This document shows positions 6,886-23,379 of a stretch of 64,000 nt of DNA, one piece after another. Under the pieces are notes generated by a model. That model worked only from the letters and a program-made list of their open reading frames with translations. It ran no database searches and was not told where the DNA came from. The position numbers and the translations under genes were made by a program. Every line of letters begins with the position of its first letter. Position 1 is the stretch's first letter. The stretch spans positions 32,772 to 96,771 of the forward strand of contig CAXTMF010000008.1 in the NCBI GenBank assembly GCA_964245435.1. The letters are read 5' to 3'. The stretch comes from an uncultured Acidobacteriaceae bacterium (GTDB lineage Bacteria; Acidobacteriota; Terriglobia; Terriglobales; Acidobacteriaceae).

Positions 6886-6916
6886 GCATTACTCTCTTCC
6901 ATGCGGAGCTCCAGCC

Positions 6917-7666: not shown

Positions 7667-7880
7667 ACGCGTAGGTAGTGTAGATGGTGAAACCAAGTTG
7701 TGCATGCGCCGAAGCTGCAAACGCGCAAAACCTGTCTGTAGCTACTGAGAGCGCAAGCCTACGGCTGAGTCCGGGGGCGACGGATCTTATTTACCGGACC
7801 GAAAAGAATCGGACTCGGGGAGCCGCTGGGTTCATACTAGAAGCAGGGATCCTTCCCCTGGTCGCTCTGCTTACCTTGAG

Positions 7881-9119: not shown

Positions 9120-9141
9120 GGTTTCGGCCACCCGGTAAAAC

Positions 9142-9200
9142 AAGGCATGTCAGTGTACGCAGCCCTTAGGGAACTGCGTCAGACATGCCTTTCCTTCTCC
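9142..9200 (+). terminator. Intrinsic-terminator-like hairpin after the M48 gene
   Basis: AAGGCATGTC (9142-9151) pairs with GACATGCCTT (9182-9191). An inner ACGCAG/CTGCGT stem sits between them, and a T/C-rich tail TTCCTTCTCC follows. Confidence 0.5.
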
Positions 9201-9292
9201 TGACGACAATTGCAGTCTCTATGTTCGCAGCTATGCAGAGGGCGCAAGTGCTCTAACGTACGCTCGCTTCAGTCTGATTTCGAGACGGGCCT

Positions 9293-9478
9293 ATGTCCAA
9301 ACGACGTAATACGCTGCACATTGTCAATGTCGCGCAGATGAGCGATGGCATTGTCGTGCTCTTTTCCGACGGTACTACAAGTCTGTTCCATACAGAGTTC
9401 CTGTACGAGATGCGCAATAGCGGCGACAATCGGGTGCTCCCCCGAGAGAGCGAGACGGAGATGCCCGGCACAGGCTAG
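9293..9478 (+). CDS. Small hypothetical protein (weak DUF971-like pattern)
   Basis: 61-aa ORF. IVVLFSDGTTSLFHTEFLYEMR resembles the DUF971 pattern L-x-V-x-(W/F)-S-D-G...F...(W/F)-L. There is no other support. Confidence 0.35.
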   Translation: MSKRRNTLHIVNVAQMSDGIVVLFSDGTTSLFHTEFLYEMRNSGDNRVLPRESETEMPGTG

Positions 9479-9589
9479 AGGACCTTACAGCACCCTCAAC
9501 GGGCACGATCAACCGAGTCCGGAGCTAACTCCTGCCTCTGCTCACCATCCGCAGAATGATAACGAGTACCAATCCGGCGAGGATTAGCT

Positions 9590-9823
9590 TTAGCACTTCT
9601 TACACTTTGCCAGGATTGCAGCCTGCAGCCGGTCCCGGAGCGAATCCGGCAGGTCATAGAGCACGTTCGAACGGTACACCTCGATGGTCTTACGGGTCGT
9701 GGTCACCGTAATGGTGCAGTGTTCGCATACGCCGAGATGACTCTGCAGCGCGGAGCGCAGGTCGAGGTCAACGGTGTCATCGAGCAGGTCATCCAGGTGC
9801 AGCAAAAACTCAGAGCAGATCAC
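9590..9823 (-). CDS. Soluble zinc-binding anti-sigma factor (ZAS, zf-HC2)
   Basis: 77 aa with no TM segment and an H-x3-C-x2-C motif (SHLGVCEHC). The GTG start overlaps the stop of the upstream ECF sigma gene by 4 nt. Confidence 0.75.
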   Translation of the reverse strand: MICSEFLLHLDDLLDDTVDLDLRSALQSHLGVCEHCTITVTTTRKTIEVYRSNVLYDLPDSLRDRLQAAILAKCKKC

Positions 9824-10551
9824 TTTGCGTCACCGTTCCCATTCTTCTTGCCCACGCCATCTGCCGTTCGGTTGCCGAAGTAGCGATTGAGTCGTTCGCG
9901 CAGCTGCAAGCGAGCCCGCAGCAGCCTGGATTTGACCGCGGGTACGCTCAGGCCAAGCGTTTCCGCCGTTTCTTCCGTTGACAGACCCTCTACGTCCCGC
10001 AGAACAAAGACCACGCGAAAGCCGGGAGGCAGACCGTTGACCGTCTTTTTCAAGATCTCGGCGAGCTCCGACTGCCCGTACTGCTGTTCCGGACTCGGGC
10101 CCCAATCGGCCAGTTCCCGGGGCATCGAGCCTTCTTCTGTTTCCACATCCTCGTCGATCGAAACCATCTTGCCGGTGCGCCGCTTGCGCAACCGCATCAG
10201 ACTTTCGTTGACCGCGATACGCACCAGCCAGGTGTAGAACTTTGAATTCCCTTGGAACTGATTCAGCTTCTCGTACGCTTTGAGGAAGGCGTCCTGGACG
10301 ACATCCTCGGCGTCTTCACGGTTCTGCGTAATGTGCTGCGCGATGCGAAAAACCTGCCGGTCATACTGCTTCACCAGCGTTTCAAATGCATGCACATCTC
10401 CGGCTTTCGCCAGGTTGACCAGGCGGACGTCCGGGTGTTCTTCAATCGCCGGATCGACACTAACCACTGTGGCTGTTAACGCGGGCGGCGGCGGAATGCT
10501 GGATCCCGGACTGTTCCCGGGCTCTTCACTGCTTGATTGGATGGGAGGCAT
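9820..10551 (-). CDS. ECF (sigma-70 family group 4) RNA polymerase sigma factor
   Basis: Region 2 (DAEDVVQDAFLKAYEKL, FYTWLVRIAVNESL) and region 4 (LRDVEGLSTEETAETLGLSVPAVKSRLLRARLQL). I set the start at ATG 10551 (243 aa), because the 358-aa ORF start would overlap the divergent slt gene. A Ser/Pro-rich N-terminal extension of about 45 aa remains. Confidence 0.85.
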   Translation of the reverse strand: MPPIQSSSEEPGNSPGSSIPPPPALTATVVSVDPAIEEHPDVRLVNLAKAGDVHAFETLVKQYDRQVFRIAQHITQNREDAEDVVQDAFLKAYEKLNQFQGNSKFYTWLVRIAVNESLMRLRKRRTGKMVSIDEDVETEEGSMPRELADWGPSPEQQYGQSELAEILKKTVNGLPPGFRVVFVLRDVEGLSTEETAETLGLSVPAVKSRLLRARLQLRERLNRYFGNRTADGVGKKNGNGDAK

Positions 10552-10786
10552 CGATGTGAGTTTCAGCTTTTCGCGCCTTTCGCTTGATTGGGCAGCGGTG
10601 CCCGAGCCCTGCCTTTCCCATGCTATCGCGTTCCGGCTGCTGCCAAGTCCAAGAGGATAGTTCTGCTGTTGGCCGGACCGTGATGCGACGGGTACGTCTG
10701 GGTACGAAGGTCCGTACCGGGTGAGCTTTTCCTGAAGCGCAGTCCGAGCCGCTCGCTTACTCTCGACTGAGAGGATTCTCGATTTC

Positions 10787-13252
10787 GTGACCCCCACACG
10801 CAGCCTTACCCGCCGGCCCCCGCGAGCCGGGCAGAATGATTGGAAGGCTTGGTACTCCTTGCGCCACGCGCTTGTTCTTTTCGCGTTTGCTTTCACAACT
10901 TGCCTGTTGAATGCAGCACCGCTGAAGAAGGCCGCCCACCCGAAGCATGCAGGCGGAACAACGGCAAAGCACGGTGCGCGTATTACTGCCGCCAGCGCGC
11001 ATAGCCGCCATGCGGCAGGAGGGCGTGTTCACCGGGTGGTCGTAGTCAGGCGTCGCGGCCGGCACCGGGTTCTTTCCGCGCGAGAAGCCGTCAAGACGCA
11101 GCAGCTGGAGCACGCGTTTGTCGCCTCTACGCAGCTGCGGCCCATGGCCCAGCAGCTCGGCAACTATCGCAGCCCGGCCGCATACGCGGGCGTGGAAGTT
11201 TATGCGCACGCCCATACCGGCGCTGCCGCGGCTGCGGCCTACCTCGCGCTCGGCCACGCGTACCTGCTTGATCACCGCTACCCGGATGCGTTGGCTGCGC
11301 TGGCCAGCGCCGATGCGCAGGGCAACTCCCTCGATGACTATGCAGAGTACTTTGCAGCGCAGGCCGACCTGCAAAGCAGTCAGCTCCCGGCTGCAAGCGT
11401 CATCCTGACGAACTTCGCAGCGAAGTACCCGGACAGTATCTTCACGCCGCAGGTGCCCGTGCTGGAAGCAAATCTGCTGCTCCAACAGAACCAGCCCGCG
11501 GACGCGTTGCGTCTGCTGCATGCCCATACGGGCGAGAGTATGGCGAGCAAGCCCGATTTCCTCCTCGCGATGGCGAAGGCCGAGTCGCAGACCGGGGACA
11601 GTGCTGGCGGGCTGACGCTCTACCGGCGCATCCTCACAGAGCACCCACTGAGCCCGGAAGCAACAGTGGCACAGAACCAGCTGCAATCGACCGGGCAGTG
11701 GCTCGCGCTCAGCGTCAGTGAGCGGCGCCAGCATGCGGATGCCTTGTTCAACGGCGGCAAATCCAACGAGGCTGCGATCGAGTTTCGCGCACTTGCCTCT
11801 GACCCGAACCTGAACCAGAGCGAGCGCGATAGCCTGCTGCTCGGCGCAGCTGCCTGCGATATGAAGCTGAAGCGGCTTTCTGCTGCCTCGCTCGCCGGCA
11901 TCCCCGACACGGATGACGACAATGGGGCGCACAGGCTTTACCTGCTGATGGAGGTCGCGCGGTCCAACCAGGATCTTGCAACGCAGCAGGATCTGGTAAA
12001 CCAGCTCCGTACCCGCTTCCCGACCAACTCCTGGCTGGCCGAGGCGCTGTTCTCGAGCGGCAACCTGTACATGCTCAAACGGGATTACGCGTCGGCGGTG
12101 CCGTACTATCTCGAGCTCGCGCGGCGCTTCCCGCAGTCAAAAAACGCGGACAACGCCCACTGGCGCGCGGCGTGGCTCAGCTACCGGGAGCGCAACTTTC
12201 CCCAGGCCGAACAGCTGATGGATGAGCAGCTCACGAGCTTCCGCGATGGCAAGAACGTGTCCTCTGCGCTGTACTGGCGCGGCCGGCTCTACCTTGACCA
12301 GCAGCATGAGCCCGCGACGGCGGCGGCCTACTTCACAGCCGAGACACGCGTATACCAGCACTACTACTACGCCGCGATCGCGCGGCAGCGGCTGGACGCA
12401 CTCGGGCCCAATGTCACACCGTCCTCCATCCCGAGCCTCGACGCGTTGCAGCCGGAGCAGATTCCGACCCTGACCGAGGATGTACCTGGCAACGACCCGC
12501 ACCTCGCCAAAGCGCGGCTTCTCGCAAATGCCGGGCTTAACGACTATCTCTCGCAGGAGATCCATGCGTCGGAGGGTTCGGACGAGTGGGGATCGCTCGC
12601 CGAAGCCAAGCTCTACGCGAGCTTTGGCGAGGCGTATCGCGCGATGCGCTCGCTCAAACGGGCTATCCCCTTCTACACCTCGGCGCCCATCGACGAGCTG
12701 CCCATGGATTACTGGCGCATTCTCTTCCCTGAGGAGTACTGGCCCACGATCCAGCGCGAGGCGGCTGCGAATGGTCTCGATCCTTACATGGTCGCCTCAC
12801 TCATCCGGCAGGAATCCGAATTCAATCCGCGCGTGATCTCATACGCAAATGCCTACGGCTTGATGCAGTTGGAACCGGCAACCGGGCGTCAAATGGCCCA
12901 GAAGACGGGCTATAGCTCCCACTTGGACGTCAATGCACTACTCGATCCGGAGATCAACATCAAGCTGGGTTGCGCTTACCTAAGGCAGACGCTCGACCGC
13001 TTCGGTGGCCAGCAGGAGTACACCTTCGCCTCCTACAACGCAGGCGAGTCGCGTGTCGATGACTGGAAAGCTGCAGGTGACTACACCGGCATCGATGAGT
13101 GGGTCGAATCGATTCCTTTTGAGCAGACACGCGACTATGTGCAGGCACTCATGCGCAATGAGGAGATCTACCGCGAGCTGGACAAAGCAGCGAAGACGCA
13201 CTCGGAGATCGAGACGGCTGCGCAGGCCGGGGCCACCGGTTCGGATAACTAG
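10787..13252 (+). CDS. slt: Soluble lytic murein transglycosylase (Slt70-like)
   Basis: 821 aa with an N-terminal hydrophobic segment, a long helical/TPR-like domain, and a C-terminal SLT catalytic domain (LIRQESEFNPRVISYANAYGLMQLEPATG...YNAGESRV). GTG start. Confidence 0.85.
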   Translation: MTPTRSLTRRPPRAGQNDWKAWYSLRHALVLFAFAFTTCLLNAAPLKKAAHPKHAGGTTAKHGARITAASAHSRHAAGGRVHRVVVVRRRGRHRVLSAREAVKTQQLEHAFVASTQLRPMAQQLGNYRSPAAYAGVEVYAHAHTGAAAAAAYLALGHAYLLDHRYPDALAALASADAQGNSLDDYAEYFAAQADLQSSQLPAASVILTNFAAKYPDSIFTPQVPVLEANLLLQQNQPADALRLLHAHTGESMASKPDFLLAMAKAESQTGDSAGGLTLYRRILTEHPLSPEATVAQNQLQSTGQWLALSVSERRQHADALFNGGKSNEAAIEFRALASDPNLNQSERDSLLLGAAACDMKLKRLSAASLAGIPDTDDDNGAHRLYLLMEVARSNQDLATQQDLVNQLRTRFPTNSWLAEALFSSGNLYMLKRDYASAVPYYLELARRFPQSKNADNAHWRAAWLSYRERNFPQAEQLMDEQLTSFRDGKNVSSALYWRGRLYLDQQHEPATAAAYFTAETRVYQHYYYAAIARQRLDALGPNVTPSSIPSLDALQPEQIPTLTEDVPGNDPHLAKARLLANAGLNDYLSQEIHASEGSDEWGSLAEAKLYASFGEAYRAMRSLKRAIPFYTSAPIDELPMDYWRILFPEEYWPTIQREAAANGLDPYMVASLIRQESEFNPRVISYANAYGLMQLEPATGRQMAQKTGYSSHLDVNALLDPEINIKLGCAYLRQTLDRFGGQQEYTFASYNAGESRVDDWKAAGDYTGIDEWVESIPFEQTRDYVQALMRNEEIYRELDKAAKTHSEIETAAQAGATGSDN

Positions 13253-14228: not shown

Positions 14229-15227
14229 CTATGCGGCCGGGCGCCCCGCTTCCACGACAAAGTCCGCCGGGAGGCAGACCTCAACGCCCGGCAACACGGA
14301 TGGTGCCAGGGTTTTTAGCAGCAACGTCGCGGCTCCGGCCTGGGGCAGCTCCCCCAGCAGCTGCTGCACCGCAGCTTCCCAGTGCAGCGCGGATTTCCGG
14401 ATCAGGTACTCGCGCACCTGAGGCCGTTGCAGCTCGCCGTAAACAGCAGTCTTGGCGCAGCGTTGCAGCACAACGCCTGCGATGCCGGAGGGCAGCAGCG
14501 GCAGAGCATCGAGCACAGGCAGTGTGCATAGGTTCGCGCCAAGATCGCGCGAAAGGTCCTTTCCCGCGACCGGCTCTGCCCCGTACAGGTCAAGCACATC
14601 GTCTGCGTACTGGAACGCGAGGCCAAGATCACGTCCGCAATCGTGCAGTCGAGAGGCAGCAGCGACATCGCCCGAGAGCAGCGCGGCCGCGCTCGTCGCG
14701 AGGCCAAAGAGCTCACCCGTCTTGCCGATCGAGACGGCCAGCGCGTGCGCACGCAGAGCCGGCTCGTTTCTCGACGAGCCACCTGTCAGTTCGCGAGCCT
14801 CTCCGGCCATCATGCGTTGTGCACACGTACTCAGTGCCTCGCCGAAGGCAAAGCTGCACCGGTAAGCACCGCGGATCGCCTCGGTCAACATCCAGTCGGA
14901 GGCAAGCGTCGCCAGCCGTGGGTCGAATGCATGGTGGGCGGCCGCGCGGCCGCGCCGGGTGCTGCTCCGATCAAAGATGTCGTCCTGCACGAGCGTGGCA
15001 GCATGCAGCAGTTCTACAACGGCCGCGGTCTGGGTCAGCCTGCCGGCCATTGTCGCTAGACCCTCGCCGGCCGCGATAAGCAGCAGCCCGCGCACTCGCT
15101 TGCCACCCTGCACTGTATAGCGGACCACGGCCCGCAGCGGCTCCCGCGCCCGTGCGGCTAGCGCTTGCAGCTCGGCTCCAATCGCGTCAGATTGCACGGG
15201 ATGGACCCCCTGTCCTGTCACTCGCAT
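14229..15227 (-). CDS. crtE: Polyprenyl (geranylgeranyl) diphosphate synthase
   Basis: First and second Asp-rich motifs (LVQDDIFD, FQYADDVLD). It is the last gene of the opsin/crt operon, so the GGPP synthase role is inferred from context. An alternative GTG start lies at 15197. Confidence 0.8.
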   Translation of the reverse strand: MRVTGQGVHPVQSDAIGAELQALAARAREPLRAVVRYTVQGGKRVRGLLLIAAGEGLATMAGRLTQTAAVVELLHAATLVQDDIFDRSSTRRGRAAAHHAFDPRLATLASDWMLTEAIRGAYRCSFAFGEALSTCAQRMMAGEARELTGGSSRNEPALRAHALAVSIGKTGELFGLATSAAALLSGDVAAASRLHDCGRDLGLAFQYADDVLDLYGAEPVAGKDLSRDLGANLCTLPVLDALPLLPSGIAGVVLQRCAKTAVYGELQRPQVREYLIRKSALHWEAAVQQLLGELPQAGAATLLLKTLAPSVLPGVEVCLPADFVVEAGRPAA

Positions 15228-16206
15228 GTGATAACTTCGGCCCTGCTGCTGTCGCTCGCCCTAGTTCGTTCAGTGCCATGTGCGGCACAGTGAGCGCACT
15301 CAGTACGATGAAGATTTCGGCCTGATAAGCAATAGCCTCATGCCGCCCCCAGAGCAATATGCCCGCGGTAAGACACAGCGCAAGCACCCAGGGCAGGAAG
15401 CCGGCTTTTAAGTTGCGGGCAAGCTTTCCCGCCAGGGTCTCGCCTGCTCCCTCGGGCAGGCTGGTCGTGACCAGGTGCTCCGGTGTATGCCAGCAGCAGA
15501 AGAACACAGTAAAGGCAAGCAGCGGGTCTGCAAAGCAGAAGAGTGCGAGCTCGATGGCAAGCACGCCCAGCAGCTCAACCTGCATACCGCGAGCTACGCC
15601 AAACTTTCCGGCGAGAATGCCCGCGGCAGCCACGGCGGCGACCGGCCAGCAGCTGGCGCCGAGCGAACCCGCAAGAGCCGCGGCCAGCCCCTGCGTGTTC
15701 CCTTCCCCGTGCAGCATTTGCGCGAAGATTGCTGCTGCCTCGCCGGAATGCCAGTGGCACGCCGCCACGATCGGCACCGCGCCAAGCGCAACTGCAGCGA
15801 TGCTGGCGAGCGGTGTCGGCGTCCAGATCTCGGGTTCGGTGCCGAAGTGCCATGCCGAGTACAGGAGAAAGAGCAGGAGAGACGCGAGCGGCGCGAGCAG
15901 CCAACCGAGCAGCGTAAACGCAGCCAAAAGAGCGTAACTGCCCAGAAATACAAGCGGCCAGCGCGGCCCGATGCGTGATAGCAGCTGCTCCGCCTGCACC
16001 TGGTCGTAAGCGCCATGCCACATCGCTACAGCAATAGCCGCGATGGCGAGTGCCACAACGGCGGGCCCGTGTAGAGCGCCCAGGATCGATGCCACGCAGC
16101 ACGCAGCGGCCGCTGCGCCGAACAGAATCAAGCGCTGCGGCAGCAGAACCGAGCGGGCCGACGCGTAGCTGGCGGCGGGTGCGATGGAAACGGAAGCAGT
16201 GCTCAC
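15187..16206 (-). CDS. blh: Brp/Blh-family beta-carotene 15,15'-dioxygenase (retinal-forming)
   Basis: 339 aa, about 8 TM, with the four conserved His blocks of the Brp/Blh family (WHGAYD, WHFGTE, CWHTPEHL, VPHMAL). It sits between crtY and crtE downstream of an opsin. Confidence 0.75.
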   Translation of the reverse strand: MSTASVSIAPAASYASARSVLLPQRLILFGAAAAACCVASILGALHGPAVVALAIAAIAVAMWHGAYDQVQAEQLLSRIGPRWPLVFLGSYALLAAFTLLGWLLAPLASLLLFLLYSAWHFGTEPEIWTPTPLASIAAVALGAVPIVAACHWHSGEAAAIFAQMLHGEGNTQGLAAALAGSLGASCWPVAAVAAAGILAGKFGVARGMQVELLGVLAIELALFCFADPLLAFTVFFCCWHTPEHLVTTSLPEGAGETLAGKLARNLKAGFLPWVLALCLTAGILLWGRHEAIAYQAEIFIVLSALTVPHMALNELGRATAAGPKLSHASDRTGGPSRAI

Positions 16207-17387
16207 CGGCCAGCTCCAGAGTTCGCTGGTTGCATCATCGCTGCTCGCACTGCGCCAAGGCCGGCCATCACAGCTGCGTGCGCCATGGGGAGCTTCGGCA
16301 AGGACCAGGCGACACGCAACATCTCCGCGGGACGGCTTCGCTCGCCTAGGAAGCGGACCAGCTCATCCGGCCGCGTCCGCGCGAACATGCGCAGGAAGAG
16401 CGTGGCTGCCACTGCTGGCGAGCGTCGCACTGCACGGAGGAAGATGACATCGAGCGTCTTGTAAATCTGCGGCTCCGCCCGGCTGGGTATCGGGCGGCCC
16501 GCCAGCAATGCTTCAGCAATTGCGCGGCTGTGCCGCTGGATACGCAGAAAGGCATAACCGGAGGAAGGCTTGATGCGGGCTCCCCGCGTACCGATAAGGT
16601 GCACGTTGCTGAGCCCGGGTTGGCAAGGTGCGCCGGCATGCATCGGCAGCGAGCCATTCTCTGTGTACAGCAGCTCCCAGTCGCGTGAACGTTCTTCCAT
16701 CCAGGCATGGAGATCGCGATGGTAGGGCGGTTCCGGCAGGCTGGGATCATCCAGGTAGGTCATCTCCACCAGTGCCTCTGTCGTCGAGAAGGGGAGCACG
16801 TAGACAAAACGCACTCGACCGGGCTCATCCGCGGGGAGCAGACCCATCAGGTCCACAGTTTCCGCGTCAAAGCAGGGCTCGGCGGTGCGGACGCGCCAGC
16901 CAACAAATCGCTGCACGAGCGCAGGCGGCACAGCGGAGTTTCCGGGATCAGGCCGGCCGTCAAAGACCCTCTTTGCCAGCAGACGTCCGTTGCTTGTTTC
17001 GATCGCCATAAGCCCGCCCGGGTGCGAAGCCACTAAGTGGACCGTGACGCCGCGGCATAGCGTTTGCGCAGGTTGGCGCTCTACGCGGTCAATGGCCGCG
17101 CGGTAGAAATCATCACCGGCTATGTGGCAATAACGATAGCGATGACTCTGCTGCATTACCGTAGTCCGGCCATGACTGACGCGCCAGCTGCTCCACGAGT
17201 GGGAGATCTCCGAACTGAACGGGTGCTCCTCGCTGTTCCAGAAGCACCAGGTACGGTCGCGCACATAGCTGGTACGCGGCTCAAGGAGCAGAACCTCGCC
17301 TGGAACCCGATGATCGGAAAGTGCCGCAGCGAGGCTCAGCCCTGCACACCCCGCGCCGAGGATAGCTAGATCGACGTCGCTCCTCAT
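16203..17387 (-). CDS. crtY: Lycopene beta-cyclase (CrtY type)
   Basis: N-terminal FAD fold DLAILGAGCAGLSLA, 394 aa, positioned between crtB and blh. Confidence 0.8.
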   Translation of the reverse strand: MRSDVDLAILGAGCAGLSLAAALSDHRVPGEVLLLEPRTSYVRDRTWCFWNSEEHPFSSEISHSWSSWRVSHGRTTVMQQSHRYRYCHIAGDDFYRAAIDRVERQPAQTLCRGVTVHLVASHPGGLMAIETSNGRLLAKRVFDGRPDPGNSAVPPALVQRFVGWRVRTAEPCFDAETVDLMGLLPADEPGRVRFVYVLPFSTTEALVEMTYLDDPSLPEPPYHRDLHAWMEERSRDWELLYTENGSLPMHAGAPCQPGLSNVHLIGTRGARIKPSSGYAFLRIQRHSRAIAEALLAGRPIPSRAEPQIYKTLDVIFLRAVRRSPAVAATLFLRMFARTRPDELVRFLGERSRPAEMLRVAWSLPKLPMAHAAVMAGLGAVRAAMMQPANSGAGR

Positions 17388-18274
17388 GGCTTGCTCCCGA
17401 GCCGGGTGAGGAGGTCGCGCCGCGCACTAGCCTGCGTCCGGCTGTTCTCAAGAGATTGCAGGAGTGCAGAGAGCAAGAGCTGCGCCTTCCGGCTACGCGC
17501 CACCACGGCTCGCTTGCGCCAGGAAAGCGGTATATCTCGTCCAACGACGATGCCGATCTCGCGATAGCAGGCCGCGGCTGCCAGGATGCTGACGCGGGCT
17601 CGCCAGGGCAGGTACTGCATACCGCTGTGCCCGCTCCGGTAGTAGCGTTCTGCGAGCTCAAGAAGCCGGCTGGTTGCACGCTCCAGCTCGGCTGAGCGAC
17701 CGCCGCTCACGATAGCCGCTTCTACGGCCTTGGGCGCCACCCAGGCTGCGGGCAGGTAAATGCGGTCGCGGCCGAGATCCTCGGCAACATCGCGAGCGAT
17801 GTTGGTCAGCTGCATGGCAATGCCAAGATCCGTCGCTGCCTGCGCTGCCTCGGGCGGCGCGCCCAGGATGCGGCACATCATGATCCCGACCGTGCCGGCG
17901 ACGCCGAAGGCGTACTCAGTGAGTTCCCGCTCAGTGCCAATGCGTTGGGGGCCAACATCGGCGGCGAGCGACTGAGTAAGCCGCAGCGCGACCCGGCTCA
18001 ACCCGGCAAAGCGCGCCTCCAGATCCACGGGCCAGCCACACGCAACTGCTTCTTCGCCGAGCGGGTCCTCATCGAGCGCCCGAATGGCCCGCTGCAGCAT
18101 CTCCGGCCCCCTGGCGCGAACGCTTGGCTCCTGCTCATCGGCCAGGTCATCCATATGGCGGCAAAATGCATACAGTTCCGCAGCGTCCTCGCGCATGCGT
18201 AGCGGCAGCAGCCGCGAAGCCAAGTGGAAGGTTCGACCGGACCTCGCCATGACAGCCTCTACGCCAGCGCTCAC
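17384..18274 (-). CDS. crtB: Phytoene synthase
   Basis: Squalene/phytoene synthase family with Asp-rich motifs (FCRHMDDLADE, NIARDVAEDLGRDRIYLP). Confidence 0.9.
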   Translation of the reverse strand: MSAGVEAVMARSGRTFHLASRLLPLRMREDAAELYAFCRHMDDLADEQEPSVRARGPEMLQRAIRALDEDPLGEEAVACGWPVDLEARFAGLSRVALRLTQSLAADVGPQRIGTERELTEYAFGVAGTVGIMMCRILGAPPEAAQAATDLGIAMQLTNIARDVAEDLGRDRIYLPAAWVAPKAVEAAIVSGGRSAELERATSRLLELAERYYRSGHSGMQYLPWRARVSILAAAACYREIGIVVGRDIPLSWRKRAVVARSRKAQLLLSALLQSLENSRTQASARRDLLTRLGSKP

Positions 18275-19854
18275 GCAGCACCTCGTCCGGCGCCGGGGGA
18301 CGCAACGAAGTTCCCGCGAGAAGCTGCACCAGCGCGCATCTCGTCAAAGTAGTGCTCGAGCACCTTTGCCGAGCAGAGTACGCCAGGCAAACCAGCTCCA
18401 GGATGCGTACCCGCGCCAACTAGGTAGAGTCCCCGCACATCTTCCGAGCGGTTGTGGAAGCGAAACCAGGCCGACTGCAACAGCGTGGGTTGAATGGAAA
18501 AGCCAGTGCCGTGCTCGGTCCGTAGCTGATCGCGGAAATGCTCAGGCGTGACGTGGAACTGGACCTCGACGTGTTCACGGAGCCCTGGGCAGAGCGAGTC
18601 CTCAAGCACCTGCATCGTGTGCGCTGCGAGCTTTGGGCCGGCTACTGCCCAGTCGATAGCGCGGTCCGGACGCAGCACCTCCAGATTTGGTACCGGAACA
18701 AGCGCATACATGCTCTCGCAACCGGACGGGGCGAGTGACGGGTCGGTACGTGTCGGCGCATGCAGGTAGAGGCTGATGTCATGTGAAAGCAATTTATGAT
18801 CGAAAATCTCCTCGAGCAATTCCTTGTACCGACGACCCAGCAGAATCGTATGGTGCGCGAGCGACGGGTACCGCTTGCGTATACCGAGATAGAGCACGAA
18901 GAGGCCCATCGAGAACTTTTTCCGGCGAATGTTCGCGTCCGTCCACTTACGACGCCACTTGGGCGCGATCAGGTGGCGGTAGACCGAGGGCGCATCGGCA
19001 TTCGCGACCACACAATCCGCCTGCACGACCTCGCCGTTCTCGAGCGCAACACCCACAGCGCGGCCGGTCACGGCGCTCTTCCTGGCTTGGCTGCCGTTCT
19101 CCTGCTCCACGAGGATTTCGCGCACTCCACAGCCAAGGTGTAAGTGGACACCGACCTGCTGCATCAGGTGCACCATCGCCTGTACAAGCGCCGCCGTGCC
19201 GCCCATGGCGAAGCTCACGCCGTCTTTGCGTTCAAGGTGCTGGATGAGCGAATAGATCGATGTTGTATGGAACGGATTTCCGCCCACCAAGAGAGGCTGA
19301 AATGAAAAAACGCGGCGCAGTGCTTCGTCTCGAATGTACTGGCTTACAAAGCTGTACACCGAGCGGTCACTACGGAGCGCTAGCATCTGCGGCAAAACCG
19401 CCAGCATCTTTCCGGCAGAGTGGAATGGCACTGCTCCAAGCTGTTCAAAGCCGACGCGGTAGATGGACTCGACCTTCCGGAGCAGCCTCTTATAGCCATC
19501 CACGTCCCCCGGGGCAAATGCGTGCACTCGTTCAACCAGTTCATGGTCCGTACCCCCATAGTCAAATGATCGCCCATCGGCGAAGCGGATGCGGTACCAG
19601 GGGGAGAGCTCCCGGAATTCAACTGCTTCACTGCGAAGAAGGCCGAACAGTTCCCAGAGCTCGTCAAAGAGAAAAGGCGCAGTAATTACGGTAGGGCCGG
19701 CGTCAAACGTGTAGCCGGCGCGACGGTATACGCCGGCCCGGCCTCCGGCCTGAGCCTGGTTATCGAAGAGATTTACAGAAAAGCCAGCCGCCCGTAGACG
19801 CAGGGCGGCAGCCATGCCGCCGAATCCCGCCCCGATCACAACTGCACTCGGCAT
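18271..19854 (-). CDS. crtI: Phytoene desaturase (bacterial CrtI type)
   Basis: N-terminal VVIGAGFGGMAAALRL FAD fold, 527 aa, C-terminal GAGTHPGAGLPGV signature. Confidence 0.9.
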   Translation of the reverse strand: MPSAVVIGAGFGGMAAALRLRAAGFSVNLFDNQAQAGGRAGVYRRAGYTFDAGPTVITAPFLFDELWELFGLLRSEAVEFRELSPWYRIRFADGRSFDYGGTDHELVERVHAFAPGDVDGYKRLLRKVESIYRVGFEQLGAVPFHSAGKMLAVLPQMLALRSDRSVYSFVSQYIRDEALRRVFSFQPLLVGGNPFHTTSIYSLIQHLERKDGVSFAMGGTAALVQAMVHLMQQVGVHLHLGCGVREILVEQENGSQARKSAVTGRAVGVALENGEVVQADCVVANADAPSVYRHLIAPKWRRKWTDANIRRKKFSMGLFVLYLGIRKRYPSLAHHTILLGRRYKELLEEIFDHKLLSHDISLYLHAPTRTDPSLAPSGCESMYALVPVPNLEVLRPDRAIDWAVAGPKLAAHTMQVLEDSLCPGLREHVEVQFHVTPEHFRDQLRTEHGTGFSIQPTLLQSAWFRFHNRSEDVRGLYLVGAGTHPGAGLPGVLCSAKVLEHYFDEMRAGAASRGNFVASPGAGRGAA

Positions 19855-19861
19855 AAAGAAT

Positions 19862-19901
19862 CCCAGAGAAAAGGGGCATCCGCAATGATGCGACCGCCCC
19901 T
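19862..19901 (-). terminator. Terminator/attenuator-like hairpin between the opsin gene and crtI
   Basis: The minus-strand RNA reads AGGGGC-GGU-CGCA-UCAU-UGCG-GAU-GCCCCU. This gives a 6-bp GC clamp (19872-19877 with 19896-19901) plus a 4-bp inner stem, followed by UUUCUCU. The element ends 7 nt before the crtI ATG. Confidence 0.35.
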
Positions 19902-19933
19902 ATTACGGCGCTGCGCATCAGGCCAGTGAAGGG

Positions 19934-20653
19934 TTAGCGGACGACGGCGCGTTCACCTGCGTAATCGGACGCAATGCTCGTTGATTTCTTCGCGAGGCTT
20001 ACAGCCCAGAGCCCGTAGGCCACCTTGGTCAGCAGGTCGAAGATCACGTAGCCCGCAGCATCAAAGTCCGCGCTGAGGTATTTCGCACCTTCCTGCCCGA
20101 GAATAAAGATGACTGGGTAGGCGAACCACAGCACGGAAAGAACGGTGGCCTTCTTTGCGTAGTCTGCACCGTGAGGGCCAGTCGCCGTCATCTTCTTGAA
20201 TGGACCGAAGAGCAGGAAATAGATGAATAAGAATGCAATACAGCTGGTGATGTAGAAGGAGTATTTCAATGTTATATCATCGGTGCGGCCCGCGACGTAC
20301 CCTGTCACGATCATGTAGATATCTGCACCGAGGAGACTGGCGATAAGAGCAAAACGCTTGAAGCCCGTACCTTTCAATCCAGAATGAACAAGACTCCAGA
20401 GCAGCAGCGGCGTCGTGATGGCCCAGTCGATATAACGGGCATAATAGAAGATGCGGCCACCTTCGGTAGTAAGCCGGCCTGCGCCTAAAGCCATCACGAG
20501 GTATGCCGTGAAGGCAAAGAGAGGCACGTAGAAGTGGGAAGCGATCTCACCTTCCTCCCGCTCATTCTTATTGCTCAGCAAAGGCAGATATAGCAGCACC
20601 ATGCCGATAAACATTCCAACTACGCCTACTTCAAGCCAGGTCTGCACATCCAT
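19934..20653 (-). CDS. Microbial (type-1) rhodopsin, DTS motif, probable light-driven outward proton pump
   Basis: 239 aa, 7 TM. Helix C RYIDWAITTPLLLWS aligns with BR RYADWLFTTPLLLLD. Helix G FDLLTKVAYG carries the Schiff-base Lys (K210) and the D212 equivalent (D206). Helix F is LWFAYPVIF. Retinal-synthesis genes follow directly downstream. Confidence 0.9.
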   Translation of the reverse strand: MDVQTWLEVGVVGMFIGMVLLYLPLLSNKNEREEGEIASHFYVPLFAFTAYLVMALGAGRLTTEGGRIFYYARYIDWAITTPLLLWSLVHSGLKGTGFKRFALIASLLGADIYMIVTGYVAGRTDDITLKYSFYITSCIAFLFIYFLLFGPFKKMTATGPHGADYAKKATVLSVLWFAYPVIFILGQEGAKYLSADFDAAGYVIFDLLTKVAYGLWAVSLAKKSTSIASDYAGERAVVR

Positions 20654-20744
20654 GCGTCACGTCCGGGGAGGGGAATAAAGGTTCTGCCGGTTGTGATGCA
20701 GAAGATTCCGCTCGAGGAGCCACCTGGTCACTGAATCGGTGGAT

Positions 20745-21950
20745 CTACTGTTTGCTCCCGGATAAGGGGCTGGGCGGCTCCGGCGAAATGCGGGTCGGTG
20801 GCTGGGGGATGTTCGTAATCGTGATCGGCTGAGGCACGGGCGGGTTCGTGACTGGCCGGGCTACGATGGCGACCTGCTCATGCTTGGTCTCGAGTAGCTT
20901 TCCCGTCCTGGAAACGTGCTCCTCCCAAACCACGTAGCGGCTATCATCCAGCCGATCCGTGAAGATGACGTCGTGCTCGCCGTCAACGCGCAGCTTGAGC
21001 AGCGGCGTCGGCGCGGTCAGGATGTCCTCGCTCAGAAAAGGCTCGTTCGGAATCTGCGGCGTCGCGCCGCCAACCTGCGCAACGCAGTCCGAAACGGCGA
21101 TCCAGCCCATCTCAGGCGAGAGATTCCGGTACAGCGTTGCCGGCGGCAGCGCCTCATTTACAGCCTTATCGCTCTCTTTTTTCACGCTGAGAGCCTGCTG
21201 TTCAGTGGTCGCATGTTTCACCTTCTTGCGGACCAGCTTCACTGCACGCACTGGCTCATTGTTCGCCCGGGGCACAACCGCCGTAAATGCAGCTGCCCGG
21301 TCACCGTCCTGCCGAGTAAAGTGGAGCAGAATTGCACCCTGACCGTCGCCTGCCGGTACACCAACCAGCGCTTCCGCGTCGGGCTGGGTTGCCGGGCATA
21401 CCGTCTGCTGGTAGCTCCAACCGGACTGAGACAAATTGAGGCCCCGCGCTTTCGCCGCGCGAGCCAGATCCTCGTGCCGCGCAGCAATGATCGCGGCGTC
21501 CGCCGCCGTAATTTCGTCGCCTGCACGCACCGGCAGCGAGAAGTACACCATACGCGGATTGCCGGGAACGCTACGAGATAGCATGCCGGGCGGCGTAACA
21601 GCGACGATGTCATGGCCCAGATCGATGTCGCGATTGGCTCCCAGGCCGAGATCCAAGCCGAGGTCCATCGGCTGCGGAGCTGAGTCGACAGAGGCGTCAA
21701 TATCCGTATGAGGCTTTGAGTCGAGCCGTACATCCGGCTGCTGCACAGGCTTTGGAGCTTGGCTCGCGGGCGTCACCTGAGAATTGTGCGTTCCGGGCTC
21801 AGTCGGCGTCGCGCTGGGTGGAAGCGTTTGCTGCGGCTGAGGCTGGGCTCCCTGCGGAACGTTGTTCTGCGCCCGCAGCTCCCGCGCAGAAAGACTTGCG
21901 ACAAACAAAGGCAGCCATACAGCAAGGGAGGTGAGACGGAGAGCTCTCAT
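20745..21950 (-). CDS. Hypothetical secreted protein
   Basis: 401 aa with signal peptide MRALRLTSLAVWLPLFVASLSARELRAQ and a Pro/Gln-rich linker of about 70 aa. I recognised no domain. Confidence 0.6.
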   Translation of the reverse strand: MRALRLTSLAVWLPLFVASLSARELRAQNNVPQGAQPQPQQTLPPSATPTEPGTHNSQVTPASQAPKPVQQPDVRLDSKPHTDIDASVDSAPQPMDLGLDLGLGANRDIDLGHDIVAVTPPGMLSRSVPGNPRMVYFSLPVRAGDEITAADAAIIAARHEDLARAAKARGLNLSQSGWSYQQTVCPATQPDAEALVGVPAGDGQGAILLHFTRQDGDRAAAFTAVVPRANNEPVRAVKLVRKKVKHATTEQQALSVKKESDKAVNEALPPATLYRNLSPEMGWIAVSDCVAQVGGATPQIPNEPFLSEDILTAPTPLLKLRVDGEHDVIFTDRLDDSRYVVWEEHVSRTGKLLETKHEQVAIVARPVTNPPVPQPITITNIPQPPTRISPEPPSPLSGSKQ

Positions 21951-22053: not shown

Positions 22054-23379
22054 TTAGCGGCGACGTGCAGGGGTCCGCGTTGTAGCCTGTACTGCGCCAT
22101 CCTTCAAGATGATCTGTGCCGGGTTTTGCGTGTAAGAGTCGAAGGTGGCCACGTATTTCACGTCGGCTCCCGGCGAAGGAACTGTCTTGAGCGGCTCCTT
22201 CATGTTGATGGTGAAGTCAGCCTTGTTCGACTGCTGGGAGTCGGCAGAGACCGCCATCTGCACCTGATCGGCAGTGGCCGTCACCACCTTGCCCGGAATC
22301 AGAAGGGTCTGACCTTTCAGGGTTGCCCATACCTTCTCGGCGTCCTCCGTCGAGCCGTTAGCGAGCACGAACTCCTTGTCGGAAAGCGAGAGCTTGGAGA
22401 GATCAGGCGTGCTGGTCACGGCCTGGTGAGCCAGGTCGGCAGGCGCCGGCGGCGGCGGAGCGGCGGTCGGCTTATAGTCAGCCGGGGGCATCAGGTTGGC
22501 TTGCGCCAGGGTTTTTACCTGATCAAAGCCATCCATGCCGCCGTGGTACTTGTTGTACCAATACTCGGCTGCCTTCTCGATCTGGTCCTTCGAGGTACCC
22601 TGCGCGAACTGCGCAGCGCGGGTCAGGTACCAGATCGCGTTCACCAGGTCCTTCGGATCTTCCTGCAGGTAAGCCTGTCCTAGCAGGTAGGTGTCGAGCA
22701 GTCCAGGTCCCGTCTGGGTCTGCGTAGGATCGGTATAGGCCTTTAGCTCGGATTGGTAGGCATCGATCGAGCCCTTGTAGTCCTTCTTTGCGGTATCATC
22801 AGCGGCAATCGCGCTTTCAAAGATTGGCGTCGCGAGCCCCTTCAGTTTGGTATAGTCGGCGTCGCTCATGCCGGCCGGCTTGGTCGCGCTCAGGCCCTTT
22901 TGTGCCAGTGAGGCTGCATCATCCAGTTTCGACTGGTCGCCCTGCGCCTGCTGCTTTTCCACGTAGACGATAAAGGTTAGTGCGCGCAGGTTGGTCGGAT
23001 CCACTTGCAGCAGACGGCGTGCCGCGTCCACTGTTTTGGGCGTGTCGTTGGCCTGCTGATAGGCGCCCACCAACTGCTCCAGCATCTCCTGCTTCACCAC
23101 GGAATTGGGATACTGCTGCAGAAAGGCTTCGATGGCTTGTGCCTTGGCTGCCGGGGAGCTCTGACCGACTGCGTTCGTGTAGGCGTTGTACTCGGCCGGA
23201 TCTTTGATCGTGATCTGGCCACCCTGCGCGTTAGTTCCAGTAGCGGGCTGGCCGGTTTGGGTCGGCGAAGCGGCCTGGCTCGGCGCGGTAGCAGGCGCGG
23301 TTTGCGCGGTCGCGGCAGGCAGTACAGCAAGTGTGCTGGTCGCAAACGCGAGCAGCGAGGCGACAACAACCTTCTTCAT
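22054..23379 (-). CDS. Secreted TPR-like helical-repeat protein
   Basis: 441 aa with a signal peptide ending AATAQ, a Pro/Thr/Gln-rich linker, and a helical-repeat body (AIEAFLQQYPNS, AARRLLQVDPTNLRAL, LLGQAYLQEDPKDLVNAIWYLTRAAQF). Confidence 0.65.
   Translation of the reverse strand: MKKVVVASLLAFATSTLAVLPAATAQTAPATAPSQAASPTQTGQPATGTNAQGGQITIKDPAEYNAYTNAVGQSSPAAKAQAIEAFLQQYPNSVVKQEMLEQLVGAYQQANDTPKTVDAARRLLQVDPTNLRALTFIVYVEKQQAQGDQSKLDDAASLAQKGLSATKPAGMSDADYTKLKGLATPIFESAIAADDTAKKDYKGSIDAYQSELKAYTDPTQTQTGPGLLDTYLLGQAYLQEDPKDLVNAIWYLTRAAQFAQGTSKDQIEKAAEYWYNKYHGGMDGFDQVKTLAQANLMPPADYKPTAAPPPPAPADLAHQAVTSTPDLSKLSLSDKEFVLANGSTEDAEKVWATLKGQTLLIPGKVVTATADQVQMAVSADSQQSNKADFTINMKEPLKTVPSPGADVKYVATFDSYTQNPAQIILKDGAVQATTRTPARRR

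What the first reader, a model, noticed from the sequence alone, without database searches (positions are those of the whole stretch)
14229..20653. Self-contained opsin plus retinal-biosynthesis operon (opsin-crtI-crtB-crtY-blh-crtE)
Six consecutive minus-strand genes encode a microbial rhodopsin, phytoene desaturase, phytoene synthase, lycopene beta-cyclase, a Brp/Blh beta-carotene 15,15'-dioxygenase and a GGPP synthase. Start and stop codons overlap by 4 nt ((A/G)TGA) at 18271-18274, 17384-17387 and 16203-16206. blh and crtE overlap by 41 nt, or 11 nt if crtE starts at GTG 15197. The five enzyme genes are therefore translationally coupled, and only the opsin is set apart, by a 79-nt spacer. 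The set covers exactly what is needed to go from FPP/IPP to all-trans retinal plus the apoprotein. There are no crtZ/crtW/crtX-type decorating enzymes, so the carotenoid branch looks dedicated to chromophore supply. The rest of the window points to a soil-type, Acidobacteriota-like chromosome, a lineage normally regarded as purely chemoheterotrophic. A complete retinal photosystem there would imply light-supplemented energy metabolism. The flanks (nth on one side, secreted proteins on the other) show no integrase, tRNA or repeats.
Basis: partly seen in the sequence, partly recalled or inferred. Interest (0 to 1): 0.8.

Follow-up and report, generated by a model that had tools for sequence, protein, structure and literature searches.

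The report
Acidobacterial rhodopsin plus retinal-synthesis operon
This is a real gene cluster that should let a lichen-type Acidobacteriaceae bacterium make retinal and a light-driven proton pump; the design is well known from other bacteria, but I found no published report of it in this very common lichen-associated lineage.

Summary
Six consecutive minus-strand genes encode a microbial rhodopsin, CrtI, CrtB, a lycopene cyclase, a Brp/Blh dioxygenase that passes its curated cut-off, and a polyprenyl-diphosphate synthase. The stated 4-nt overlaps and the 79-nt spacer are there.

The opsin carries a D-T-S motif, with His at the BR-T46 site and Tyr at the BR-F219 site. These are the hallmarks of DTG/DTS ("mirror") proton-pumping rhodopsins. 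Unlike those, it keeps a BR-like Glu/Asp pair at the proton-release sites.

The cassette is not unique. The same gene order occurs in most of 44 Terriglobia species genomes that carry the opsin. All 44 are MAGs and most come from lichen metagenomes. The three closest belong to genus EB88. Shared flanks and normal GC3 point to a vertically inherited chromosomal trait rather than an island.

- The opsin–crtI spacer holds a terminator-like hairpin, as it does in close relatives.
- crtE is dispensable, since five relatives lack it.
- The habitat is lichen rather than bulk soil.

I found no paper describing this. It is a new member of a known kind. Function is inferred, not tested.

The parts
20691..20699 (-). 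Conserved upstream box GCATCACAA (clade consensus GCATC[C/T]NA), 46 nt before the opsin ATG. Candidate promoter or operator element.
   Evidence: A [G/C]CATC box was found 30-75 nt upstream in 36 of 45 Terriglobia loci, and it sits 41-49 nt upstream of the opsin start in most close relatives although the surrounding sequence has diverged. The window sequence was read directly. No consistent -35 element was found, and the sigma-70 scan gave no hit here. Its function is inferred.
19934..20653 (-). Microbial rhodopsin, 239 aa, D76-T80-S87 (DTS) motif. Other key residues are H40, R73, E188, D198, D206, K210 (retinal Schiff-base lysine) and Y213.
   Evidence: Pfam Bac_rhodopsin scores 147 bits. The AlphaFold2 model has pLDDT 90.2 and seven transmembrane helices. 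The best solved matches are SsGHR 8xx8 (TM 0.92, 39% id), SpaR 8anq (32%) and PspR 7w74 (TM 0.88, 33%).
19866..19920 (-). Structured part of the 79-nt opsin-crtI spacer. It contains a terminator-like hairpin at 19891-19876 followed by CCCTTTTCTC (19875-19866), and an overlapping, mutually exclusive larger hairpin at 19920-19886.
   Evidence: The terminator-like site comes and the MFE fold (z = -1.39, not significant on its own). Across 24 spacers of 50 nt or more (mostly close relatives, plus the window) the mean z is -2.2, 11 of 24 have z < -2, and by eye about half have a T-run after the stem. In the Terriglobus/Granulicella branch the gap is mostly 0-8 nt instead.
18271..19854 (-). crtI, phytoene desaturase (527 aa).
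   Evidence: TIGR02734 crtI_fam scores 579.7 bits against a cut-off of 238.1, and Amino_oxidase also hits. Identity is 66-83% in relatives with the cassette.
17384..18274 (-). crtB, phytoene synthase (296 aa). The GTG start overlaps the crtI stop (GTGA).
   Evidence: Pfam SQS_PSY scores 177.8 bits. The best NCBIfam hits are the CrtB equivalog models, below their cut-offs. The -4 overlap is conserved across the clade.
16203..17387 (-). Lycopene cyclase, CrtY-like and divergent (394 aa). Its start overlaps the crtB stop (ATGA).
   Evidence: Pfam Lycopene_cycl scores 169.5 bits. TIGR01790 and TIGR01789 score only 89 and 60 bits, below cut-offs near 210. Beta-ring specificity is inferred from the blh gene downstream.
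15187..16206 (-). blh, Brp/Blh-family beta-carotene 15,15'-dioxygenase (339 aa). Its start overlaps the crtY stop (GTGA).
   Evidence: TIGR03753 scores 129.9 bits against a cut-off of 95.25, and Pfam BCD scores 127.9 bits. H64, H120, H240 and H244 are at least 95% conserved among 31 clade members. From memory, their spacing matches the four Fe-ligand His residues described for Blh.
14229..15227 (-). Polyprenyl-diphosphate synthase (crtE-like, presumed GGPP synthase). It overlaps the blh end by 41 nt, or by 11 nt from GTG 15197.
   Evidence: Pfam polyprenyl_synt scores 155.9 bits, but no NCBIfam equivalog cut-off is reached. The DDIFD (82-86) and DDxxD (209-213) motifs are conserved. The gene is absent from five relatives, where blh abuts nth. 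The C20 product is inferred from context only.

Best explanation
This is a chromosomal, vertically inherited retinal photosystem of an uncultured, probably lichen-associated Acidobacteriaceae bacterium.

Proposed chemistry:
- The five overlapping enzyme genes convert FPP and IPP to GGPP (crtE-like), then phytoene (CrtB), lycopene (CrtI) and beta-carotene (the cyclase).
- Blh cleaves beta-carotene into two molecules of all-trans retinal.
- Retinal binds K210 of the opsin.

Proposed pump cycle:
- Light isomerises the retinal, and the Schiff-base proton passes to D76.
- A proton leaves on the outside through R73 and the E188/D198 pair.
- No carboxylate donor is present (S87 replaces it), so the Schiff base is reprotonated directly from the cytoplasm through a water-filled cavity around H40 and Y213, as in DTG/DTS rhodopsins.
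- The net effect is outward proton pumping that adds to the proton-motive force in the light. By analogy with SpaR and PspR, it probably works best at acidic pH, which would suit an acidophile.

Proposed expression: the opsin is probably made in excess from an upstream promoter, and a hairpin in the spacer lets only part of the transcription continue into the translationally coupled enzyme genes.

What is shown: the gene identities, the motifs, the fold, and conservation of the cassette. What is inferred: pumping, its direction and pH profile, retinal production, and attenuation.
For: - All six families were identified, and Blh and CrtI exceed their curated cut-offs.
- All residues needed for a BR-type outward pump are present and invariant in the clade. 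In BR numbering these are R82, D85, T89, L93, W182, Y185, E194, D204 (Asp here), D212 and K216. H46, S96 and Y219 are typical of DTG/DTS pumps (PMC8927995; PMC10154332).
- The model is confident and overlays SsGHR, SpaR and PspR at TM 0.84-0.92.
- The order opsin-crtI-crtB-crtY-blh(-crtE) and the -4 overlaps are conserved in most of the 44 Terriglobia species loci, apart from short or rearranged ones. About 25 of them also share the flanking genes.
- GC3 of the cassette lies within the window's range.
- Spacer hairpins recur in relatives.
- The relatives come from light-exposed habitats, mostly lichen thalli with one bog MAG.
Against: - There is no functional evidence of any kind.
- The nearest solved structure, SsGHR, is an anion pump, though it has Thr at the D85 site.
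- A DTS motif alone does not fix function. ASR and some viral rhodopsins also carry it.
- The cyclase and crtE-like genes miss the curated equivalog cut-offs.
- The window's own spacer fold is not significantly more stable than shuffled sequence (z = -1.39).
- No promoter could be identified.
- The second histidine typical of DTG/DTS pumps (PspR H33) is replaced by Glu or Asp.
- Pumping against the large pH gradient of an acidophile is assumed, not shown.
Confidence: 0.78

Rival explanations
1. The cluster is mainly a photoprotective carotenoid (beta-carotene) gene cluster, as BGC-mining tools label it. On this reading the opsin and blh are a minor side branch, or a light sensor that reports irradiance rather than harvesting energy.
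For: In the supplement of the lichen MAG survey, an EB88 relative (public_SRR14722157_metawrap_bin.1, locus L002) carries a 'Terpene' BGC whose nearest MiBIG entry is BGC0000646. I did not confirm that this BGC is the cassette. Lichen surfaces are high-light and desiccating. Donor-less DTG/DTS pumps are slow at neutral pH (PMC8927995). Lichen DSE rhodopsins were proposed to be possible sensors.
Against: blh sits inside the chain of 4-nt-overlapping genes, so beta-carotene is cleaved as it is made. The opsin heads the cluster in nearly every full-length locus, and none of the loci inspected carries a hydroxylase, ketolase or glycosyltransferase. No transducer-like gene is adjacent. The counter-ion residues and the proton-release pair of a pump are invariant. 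Asp at BR-212 argues against ASR or xenorhodopsin-type sensors.
Confidence: 0.12
2. The opsin transports something other than protons outward. Candidates are Na+/Li+, as claimed for the DTG rhodopsin MpR, or an anion, as in its nearest structural neighbour SsGHR. It could also be active only in a narrow pH range for pH homeostasis rather than energy gain.
For: The best sequence and structure match is the sulfate/chloride pump SsGHR (146 bits, TM 0.92). In my NJ tree the TTG pump is nested among DTG/DTS sequences. A separate DTG/DTS clade includes the reported Na+/Li+ pump MpR.
Against: Anion pumps replace D85 with Thr or Asn, whereas Asp is invariant here. The Terriglobia clade is a separate branch with 60/60 bootstrap support and does not group with SsGHR (0/60). 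The Glu/Asp proton-release pair is retained.
Confidence: 0.07
3. The cassette is a recently transferred island or a mis-binned or chimeric contig, so it says nothing about Acidobacteriaceae biology.
For: Rhodopsin cassettes are well known to move horizontally. The opsin has the lowest overall GC of the cluster (0.53). The Terriglobus/Granulicella branch carries the cassette in different flanks.
Against: The cassette lies inside a contiguous 64-kb stretch of housekeeping genes, including SMC, Lon, BamA, TamB, nth and SLT. The same flanks occur in about 25 species and on megabase-scale contigs of 3.6-4.4 Mb, several deposited as 'chromosome: 1'. GC3 is within 1.6 sd of the window mean. There is no tRNA, integrase or transposase.
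Confidence: 0.03

Closest known systems
Proteorhodopsin photosystem operon of marine bacteria (PR-crtE-crtI-crtB-crtY-idi-blh; Sabehi et al. 2005 and Martinez et al. 2007, cited from memory)
   Same: One opsin is followed by the genes that build beta-carotene and cleave it with Blh. In that system the set is sufficient for light-driven proton pumping when moved into E. coli. The logic, enzymes and chromophore are the same.
   Different: The opsin family differs: DTE proteorhodopsin with a carboxylate donor there, a donor-less DTS opsin here. The gene order differs (crtE is last here), there is no idi, and a hairpin spacer follows the opsin. The host is a terrestrial, acidophilic Acidobacteriaceae.
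DTG/DTS ('mirror') proton-pumping rhodopsins: PspR of Pseudomonas putida (PDB 7W74) and SpaR of Sphingomonas paucimobilis (PDB 8ANQ)
   Same: It has the D-T-G/S motif, His at BR-T46, Tyr at BR-F219, Leu at BR-L93 and no cytoplasmic carboxylate donor. It is found in soil, plant or lichen-associated bacteria. Fold match is TM 0.84-0.88.
   Different: Identity is only 32-33%. It forms its own clade (60/60 bootstraps). It keeps a Glu plus Asp pair at BR-194/204, where the Proteobacteria have Ser, Gly, Ala or Thr at 204. It has Glu or Asp instead of the second His (PspR H33). The proteobacterial loci carry blh alone next to the opsin, or nothing, not the whole pathway.
Glycylhalorhodopsin SsGHR of Salinarimonas soli (TTG motif, PDB 8XX8)
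   Same: It is the closest solved sequence and structure (146 bits, 39% identity, TM 0.92).
   Different: SsGHR has Thr at the D85 site and Gln at the T46 site, and it pumps anions inward. The window protein has Asp and His at these sites.
Acidiparvus (UBA12189, Holophagaceae) proteorhodopsins. This is the only paper with substantive content on Acidobacteriota rhodopsins that my searches returned.
   Same: It is a rhodopsin in the phylum Acidobacteriota, flanked by lineage-typical genes and judged to be vertically inherited.
   Different: Those are DTE proteorhodopsins in a streamlined freshwater lineage that lacks crtE/I/B/Y. Here the opsin is a DTS type with a linked complete retinal pathway, in class Terriglobia.
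Anabaena sensory rhodopsin and xenorhodopsins (also D-T-S in ASR)
   Same: They share the three-letter motif.
   Different: From memory, those proteins have Pro at the BR-D212 site, whereas Asp is invariant here. No transducer gene is adjacent. ASR is a weaker match (96 bits against 146 and 113).

Membership tests
Microbial (type I) rhodopsin | Match to the Bac_rhodopsin profile and a seven-helix fold | tested here: met
   PF01036 scores 147.3 bits against a cut-off of 24.6. The AF2 model has pLDDT 90.2 with seven long helices. It matches more than 300 rhodopsin chains in the PDB at E<=1e-3.
Microbial (type I) rhodopsin | Retinal-binding Lys in helix G, with Asp four residues before it (DxxxK) | tested here: met
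   D206 and K210 align with BR D212 and K216 and are invariant in the complete Terriglobia sequences.
Outward proton-pumping rhodopsin (BR-like mechanism) | Carboxylate proton acceptor at BR-D85, with Arg82 and Thr89 | tested here: met
   R73, D76 and T80 are invariant.
Outward proton-pumping rhodopsin (BR-like mechanism) | Light-driven, protonophore-sensitive proton export | not testable with these tools
   This needs expression and pH-electrode or liposome assays.
DTG/DTS ('mirror') rhodopsins | Gly or Ser at the BR-D96 site (no carboxylate donor) | tested here: met
   S87 is present in the window opsin and in every Terriglobia locus. One protein in alignment A1 has Thr.
DTG/DTS ('mirror') rhodopsins | Conserved His at the BR-T46 site (PspR/SpaR H37) and Tyr at the BR-F219 site (PspR Y213) | tested here: met
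   H40 and Y213 are invariant. The features are as described in PMC8927995.
DTG/DTS ('mirror') rhodopsins | Second helix-B His (PspR H33) | tested here: not met
   This position is E36 in the window and mostly Asp or Glu across the clade.
DTG/DTS ('mirror') rhodopsins | Phylogenetic placement inside the SpaR/PspR clade | tested here: inconclusive
   In the NJ tree the Terriglobia sequences form a separate, fully supported branch next to the proteobacterial DTG/DTS/TTG assemblage. Deep nodes are unsupported (4/60) and the reference set was small.
DTG/DTS ('mirror') rhodopsins | Pumping that is efficient at acidic pH and slows at neutral or alkaline pH | not testable with these tools
   This needs pH-dependent transport and flash-photolysis measurements.
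Brp/Blh beta-carotene 15,15'-dioxygenase | Score above the curated TIGR03753 cut-off | tested here: met
   129.9 bits against 95.25, covering 256 of 260 profile positions.
Brp/Blh beta-carotene 15,15'-dioxygenase | Four conserved His residues (proposed iron ligands) | tested here: met
   H64, H120, H240 and H244 are at least 95% conserved in 31 clade members. The ligand assignment is recalled from the Blh literature and was not tested.
GGPP synthase CrtE | Reaches a GGPP-synthase equivalog model, or shows C20 product specificity | tested here: not met
   NF045685 CrtE scores 71 bits against 460, and NF041003 GGPP_syn scores 77 bits against 500. Only the general polyprenyl_synt family is reached. 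It may still act as a GGPP synthase.
Lycopene beta-cyclase CrtY | Reaches the curated CrtY/carotene-cyclase models | tested here: inconclusive
   Pfam Lycopene_cycl is passed at 169.5 bits. TIGR01790 scores 89 bits against 209.5, and TIGR01789 scores 60 bits against 215.
Rhodopsin photosystem operon (opsin plus retinal pathway) | Opsin, crtE/B/I/Y and blh contiguous on one strand and conserved as a unit across genomes | tested here: met
   crtE is variable.
Rhodopsin photosystem operon (opsin plus retinal pathway) | Co-transcription of all genes | not testable with these tools
   A terminator-like hairpin after the opsin makes full co-transcription uncertain. RT-PCR or Term-seq is needed.

The most novel reading that the evidence does not exclude
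The Terriglobia opsins are a functionally distinct, acid-adapted subclass of donor-less proton pumps. They combine the DTS/His/Tyr cytoplasmic half of 'mirror' rhodopsins with an intact BR-like Glu/Asp proton-release pair. Together with their own retinal pathway they would make EB88, one of the most frequent bacterial genera in lichens, and other lichen Acidobacteriaceae a previously unrecognised retinal-based phototrophic guild inside the lichen symbiosis. That guild would sit alongside the algal or cyanobacterial photobiont and the bacteriochlorophyll-containing Alphaproteobacteria.
Probability: 0.3. Interest if true: 0.65.

Novelty: new member of a known kind. Interest (0 to 1): 0.45.

Why it matters
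Class Terriglobia (Acidobacteriaceae and relatives) is treated in the literature as chemoheterotrophic. The lichen-microbiome surveys I read attribute bacterial phototrophy only to bacteriochlorophyll-containing Acetobacteraceae and Beijerinckiaceae, and they never mention rhodopsins.

If the cassette works, one of the most frequently recovered bacterial genera in lichens (EB88) can top up its energy budget with light. That would change carbon and energy budgets drawn for lichen thalli. It would also offer a simple aid to cultivating these uncultured bacteria: grow them in the light at low pH.

For rhodopsin biophysics, the clade offers a natural hybrid: a donor-less cytoplasmic half joined to a BR-like release group, from acidophiles. 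This bears on the open question of how DTG/DTS pumps take up and release protons.

The cassette design itself is ordinary.

Tried and rejected
- **Exact look-up of the window opsin's encoding contig.** It returned nothing, so the source record could not be named. Taxonomy rests on synteny and identity to named MAGs.
- **tRNA, Rfam and sigma-70 scans.** None gave a hit in or beside the cluster.
- **First NJ and bootstrap attempt.** It timed out. I redid it with a faster distance routine. Deep branching remains unresolved, and I did not run a maximum-likelihood tree.
- **Automatic hairpin plus T-tail detector.** It over-extended stems and flagged only 2 of 24 spacers. The "about half with a T-run" figure is from reading the sequences and is approximate.
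- **Search for a -35 element upstream of the conserved GCATC box.** I found none at a consistent spacing. An ECF-type promoter reading is possible, since an ECF sigma gene lies at 9820-10896, but I dropped it as unsupported.
- **Carotenoid-antenna binding (xanthorhodopsin-like).** I consider it unlikely because the BR-W138 site is Tyr or Phe, not Gly. The rule is recalled from the literature.
- **ASR/xenorhodopsin sensor reading.** Rejected because of Asp at BR-212.
- **Recent-island reading.** Rejected on synteny and GC3.
- **Literature searches.** Eight full-text searches found no description of this cassette. The library lacks most subscription-journal papers, so absence is not proof.

Full report

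Yes. The ORF list shows six consecutive minus-strand ORFs at exactly the stated coordinates. Reading the junctions confirms GTGA at 18271-18274, ATGA at 17384-17387 and GTGA at 16203-16206. It also confirms a 41-nt blh/crtE overlap (11 nt from GTG 15197) and a 79-nt gap between the opsin stop and the crtI start.

Profile searches identify every product:

| Gene | Profile | Score (bits) | Cut-off |
|---|---|---|---|
| opsin | Bac_rhodopsin | 147 | 24.6 |
| crtI | crtI_fam TIGR02734 | 580 | 238 |
| crtB | SQS_PSY | 178 | 26 |
| cyclase | Lycopene_cycl (Pfam) | 170 | 23.4 |
| blh | Brp/Blh TIGR03753 | 129.9 | 95.25 |
| crtE-like | polyprenyl_synt | 156 | 27 |

Two caveats apply. The cyclase misses the curated NCBIfam CrtY cut-offs. 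The last gene reaches no chain-length-specific model, so "GGPP synthase" is a contextual inference.

**2. The opsin**

Helix C reads RYIDWAITTPLLLWSL. In bacteriorhodopsin (BR) numbering this gives D85, T89 and S96, a DTS motif.

Mapping onto BR shows these sites in the window protein and in every Terriglobia relative:
- R82, D85, T89, L93, W182, Y185, D212 and K216 are all present.
- His sits at T46 and Tyr at F219.
- Glu sits at E194 (Gln or Asp in three relatives) and Asp at E204.

His-46, Ser/Gly-96 and Tyr-219 are the described hallmarks of the donor-less DTG/DTS proton pumps. Examples are PspR and SpaR, the latter called a "mirror proteorhodopsin" because it pumps only at acidic pH (PMC8927995; PMC10154332).

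An AlphaFold2 model built from 33 clade members is confident (pLDDT 90.2, seven helices). It overlays best on three solved structures (sequence ranking):
- SsGHR (8XX8): TM 0.92, 39% identity.
- SpaR (8ANQ): 32% identity.
- PspR (7W74): TM 0.88, 33% identity.

SsGHR is an anion pump, but it has Thr at the D85 site and Gln at the T46 site. The window protein is therefore not of that functional type.

Two differences from the proteobacterial DTG/DTS proteins stand out. The acidobacterial clade keeps a carboxylate pair at BR-194/204, where the others have Ser, Gly, Ala or Thr at 204. It also has Glu or Asp where PspR has its second histidine.

In a neighbour-joining tree of 84 sequences, the Terriglobia opsins form one branch in 60 of 60 bootstraps. 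They never group with SsGHR. Deeper nodes are unresolved.

**3. Who carries it, and is it an island?**

The exact protein is already in NCBI/ENA on a 157-kb contig.

A scan of one genome per prokaryotic species found 212 relatives. The 44 closest (49-79% identity) are all Terriglobia. They are named Acidobacteriaceae, Terriglobus, Granulicella, Bryocella, Acidipila and Bryobacteraceae/Bryobacterales. All are metagenome-assembled genomes. Most come from lichen metagenome projects, and one comes from a bog.

The three closest are classified as GTDB genus EB88 in the supplement of the lichen MAG survey. EB88 is the genus most often recovered from lichen metagenomes in another survey (PMC12136951).

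tblastn with the six window proteins shows the same order and strand in every locus long enough to tell, except L012, L036 and the outlying L045. The closer branch (about 25 species) also shares the two upstream genes and nth downstream. A 3.59-Mb contig with a 77%-identical opsin is syntenic with the window from SMC to the SLT transglycosylase.

The window itself is ordinary chromosome. It carries SMC, Lon, BamA, TamB, DegP, prephenate dehydratase and nth. It has no integrase, transposase or tRNA. GC3 of the cassette genes (0.65-0.74) lies within the window's distribution (0.717 ± 0.043).

I conclude that the cassette is an old, vertically inherited trait of this lineage and not a recent acquisition. 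The Terriglobus/Granulicella branch carries it in other flanks, so at least one relocation or transfer occurred within the class.

**4. Operon architecture**

The -4 overlaps at crtI/crtB, crtB/crtY and crtY/blh are conserved in most species. This supports translational coupling. The coupling itself is inferred.

The opsin-crtI junction behaves differently. In the Terriglobus/Granulicella branch the gap is mostly 0-8 nt. In the window's branch it is mostly 55-155 nt and folds into a stable GC-rich hairpin. Across 24 spacers the mean z is -2.2 and 11 have z < -2. On inspection about half are followed by a T-run.

The window has a weaker version: GCATCATTGCGGATGC followed by CCCTTTTCTC at 19891-19866. 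It overlaps a larger alternative hairpin at 19920-19886. The fold as a whole is not significant (z = -1.39).

The most economical reading is a leaky terminator or a 3'-stabilising hairpin. Either would give more opsin message than enzyme message, which fits the need for many opsin molecules and few enzyme molecules. This is an inference.

Upstream of the opsin, a box GCATC[C/T]NA sits 41-49 nt before the start codon in most close relatives, within otherwise diverged sequence. In the window it is at 20699-20691. It may be a promoter or operator element. I could not find a matching -35 element.

**5. How self-contained is it?**

The chemistry is complete on paper: a polyprenyl synthase, CrtB, CrtI, a cyclase and Blh. 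No hydroxylase, ketolase or glycosyltransferase lies in the cluster or elsewhere in the 64-kb window.

However, five relatives have blh directly abutting nth, with no room for crtE. GGPP can evidently come from elsewhere in those genomes.

The more distant DTG/DTS opsins of Acetobacteraceae, Methylobacterium, Caulobacteraceae and others carry at most blh beside the opsin. Linkage of the whole pathway is thus a feature of the Terriglobia clade. The one outlying Bryobacteraceae locus is arranged differently.

**6. Mechanism proposed**

Light isomerises retinal bound at K210. The Schiff-base proton goes to D76, and a proton is released outside via R73 and the E188/D198 pair. Reprotonation comes directly from the cytoplasm through a hydrated cavity lined by H40, S87 and Y213.

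As in PspR and SpaR, the reprotonation rate should rise with proton concentration. That would suit an acidophile living in an acidic, sunlit lichen thallus.

Residue identities, fold and conservation are shown. Transport, its direction, its pH profile and actual retinal synthesis are inferred.

**7. Rivals**

- **Mainly photoprotective carotenoid cluster with a sensory opsin (about 0.12).** This is disfavoured by blh being inside the coupled gene chain, by the absence of a transducer gene, and by the full set of pump residues.
- **Different transported ion (about 0.07).** This is disfavoured by the invariant Asp at the D85 site.
- **Island or mis-assembly (about 0.03).** This is contradicted by synteny on megabase-scale chromosomal contigs.

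**8. Novelty and the literature**

The design, an opsin plus crt genes plus blh, is the classic proteorhodopsin photosystem arrangement. The opsin belongs to, or sits beside, the known DTG/DTS group.

What appears to be unreported is its presence in Terriglobia and its prevalence in lichen Acidobacteriaceae:
- The lichen MAG survey that produced the closest relatives never mentions rhodopsin. It assigns bacterial phototrophy only to bacteriochlorophyll-containing Alphaproteobacteria.
- Two further lichen metagenome papers are equally silent.
- A rhodopsin survey of lichen microbiomes reports only an actinobacterial DSE group.
- The only paper with substantive content on Acidobacteriota rhodopsins that my searches returned concerns DTE proteorhodopsins of a freshwater Holophagaceae genus that lacks retinal genes.

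The searchable library omits most subscription-journal papers, so prior description cannot be excluded.

**9. Verdict**

The finding is real and correctly interpreted. I classify it as a new member of a known kind. It has moderate ecological interest and some biophysical interest, and its function is still untested.

Noticed in passing
window 20691-20699 (-), and the equivalent position in L001-L044: A box GCATC[C/T]NA sits 41-49 nt upstream of the opsin start codon in most close relatives, although the surrounding intergenic sequence is not alignable. A second GCATCA copy forms the 5' arm of the hairpin just before crtI in the window.
   Followed up: partly
window 22054-23379 (-) and 20745-21950 (-): Two predicted secreted proteins lie directly upstream of the opsin on the same strand and have no significant Pfam match. 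The 441-aa one is 75-89% identical across the closer relatives, so it is more conserved than the opsin (60-79%). It always sits in the same place.
   Followed up: partly
window opsin residue T209 (codon about 20027-20029, - strand): The residue just before the retinal lysine (the BR A215 site) is Thr in the window and its nearest relatives, but Ala in most of the clade. From memory, Ala-to-Thr at this site blue-shifts absorption in other rhodopsins, so this sub-branch may be tuned differently.
   Followed up: no
L004, L011, L016, L017, L043: In five related species the cassette ends at blh, which directly abuts nth with a gap of 18-82 nt. The crtE-like gene is therefore missing, and GGPP must come from elsewhere in those genomes.
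   Followed up: partly
L081-L083 (Terriglobus/Granulicella-type branch), 15336-17564: In this branch a TM_HPP membrane-protein gene overlaps the end of the crtE-like gene. A HEM4-GAF-ANTAR regulator gene lies just downstream on the opposite strand. Neither is present in the window.
   Followed up: no
L053, L056, L058, L060, L061, L064, L069, L078: The more distant DTG/DTS opsins of Acetobacteraceae, Caulobacteraceae, Janthinobacterium and Methylobacterium have a weakly similar blh gene immediately downstream of the opsin, but no crtI, crtB or crtY within 10 kb.
   Followed up: partly
window 9820-10896 (-) versus 10787-13252 (+): An ECF-type sigma factor ORF with a long N-terminal extension (358 aa, sigma domains from residue 158) overlaps by 110 nt the start of the divergent SLT/TPR transglycosylase ORF as listed. 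At least one of the two start codons is probably called too far upstream.
   Followed up: no
L045 (Bryobacteraceae MAG), 6778-12959: An outlying DTG opsin (42% identical) sits in a differently ordered cluster, crtE-crtI-crtB-opsin-gap-crtY. This suggests an independent assembly of an opsin-carotenoid cluster elsewhere in Acidobacteriota.
   Followed up: no
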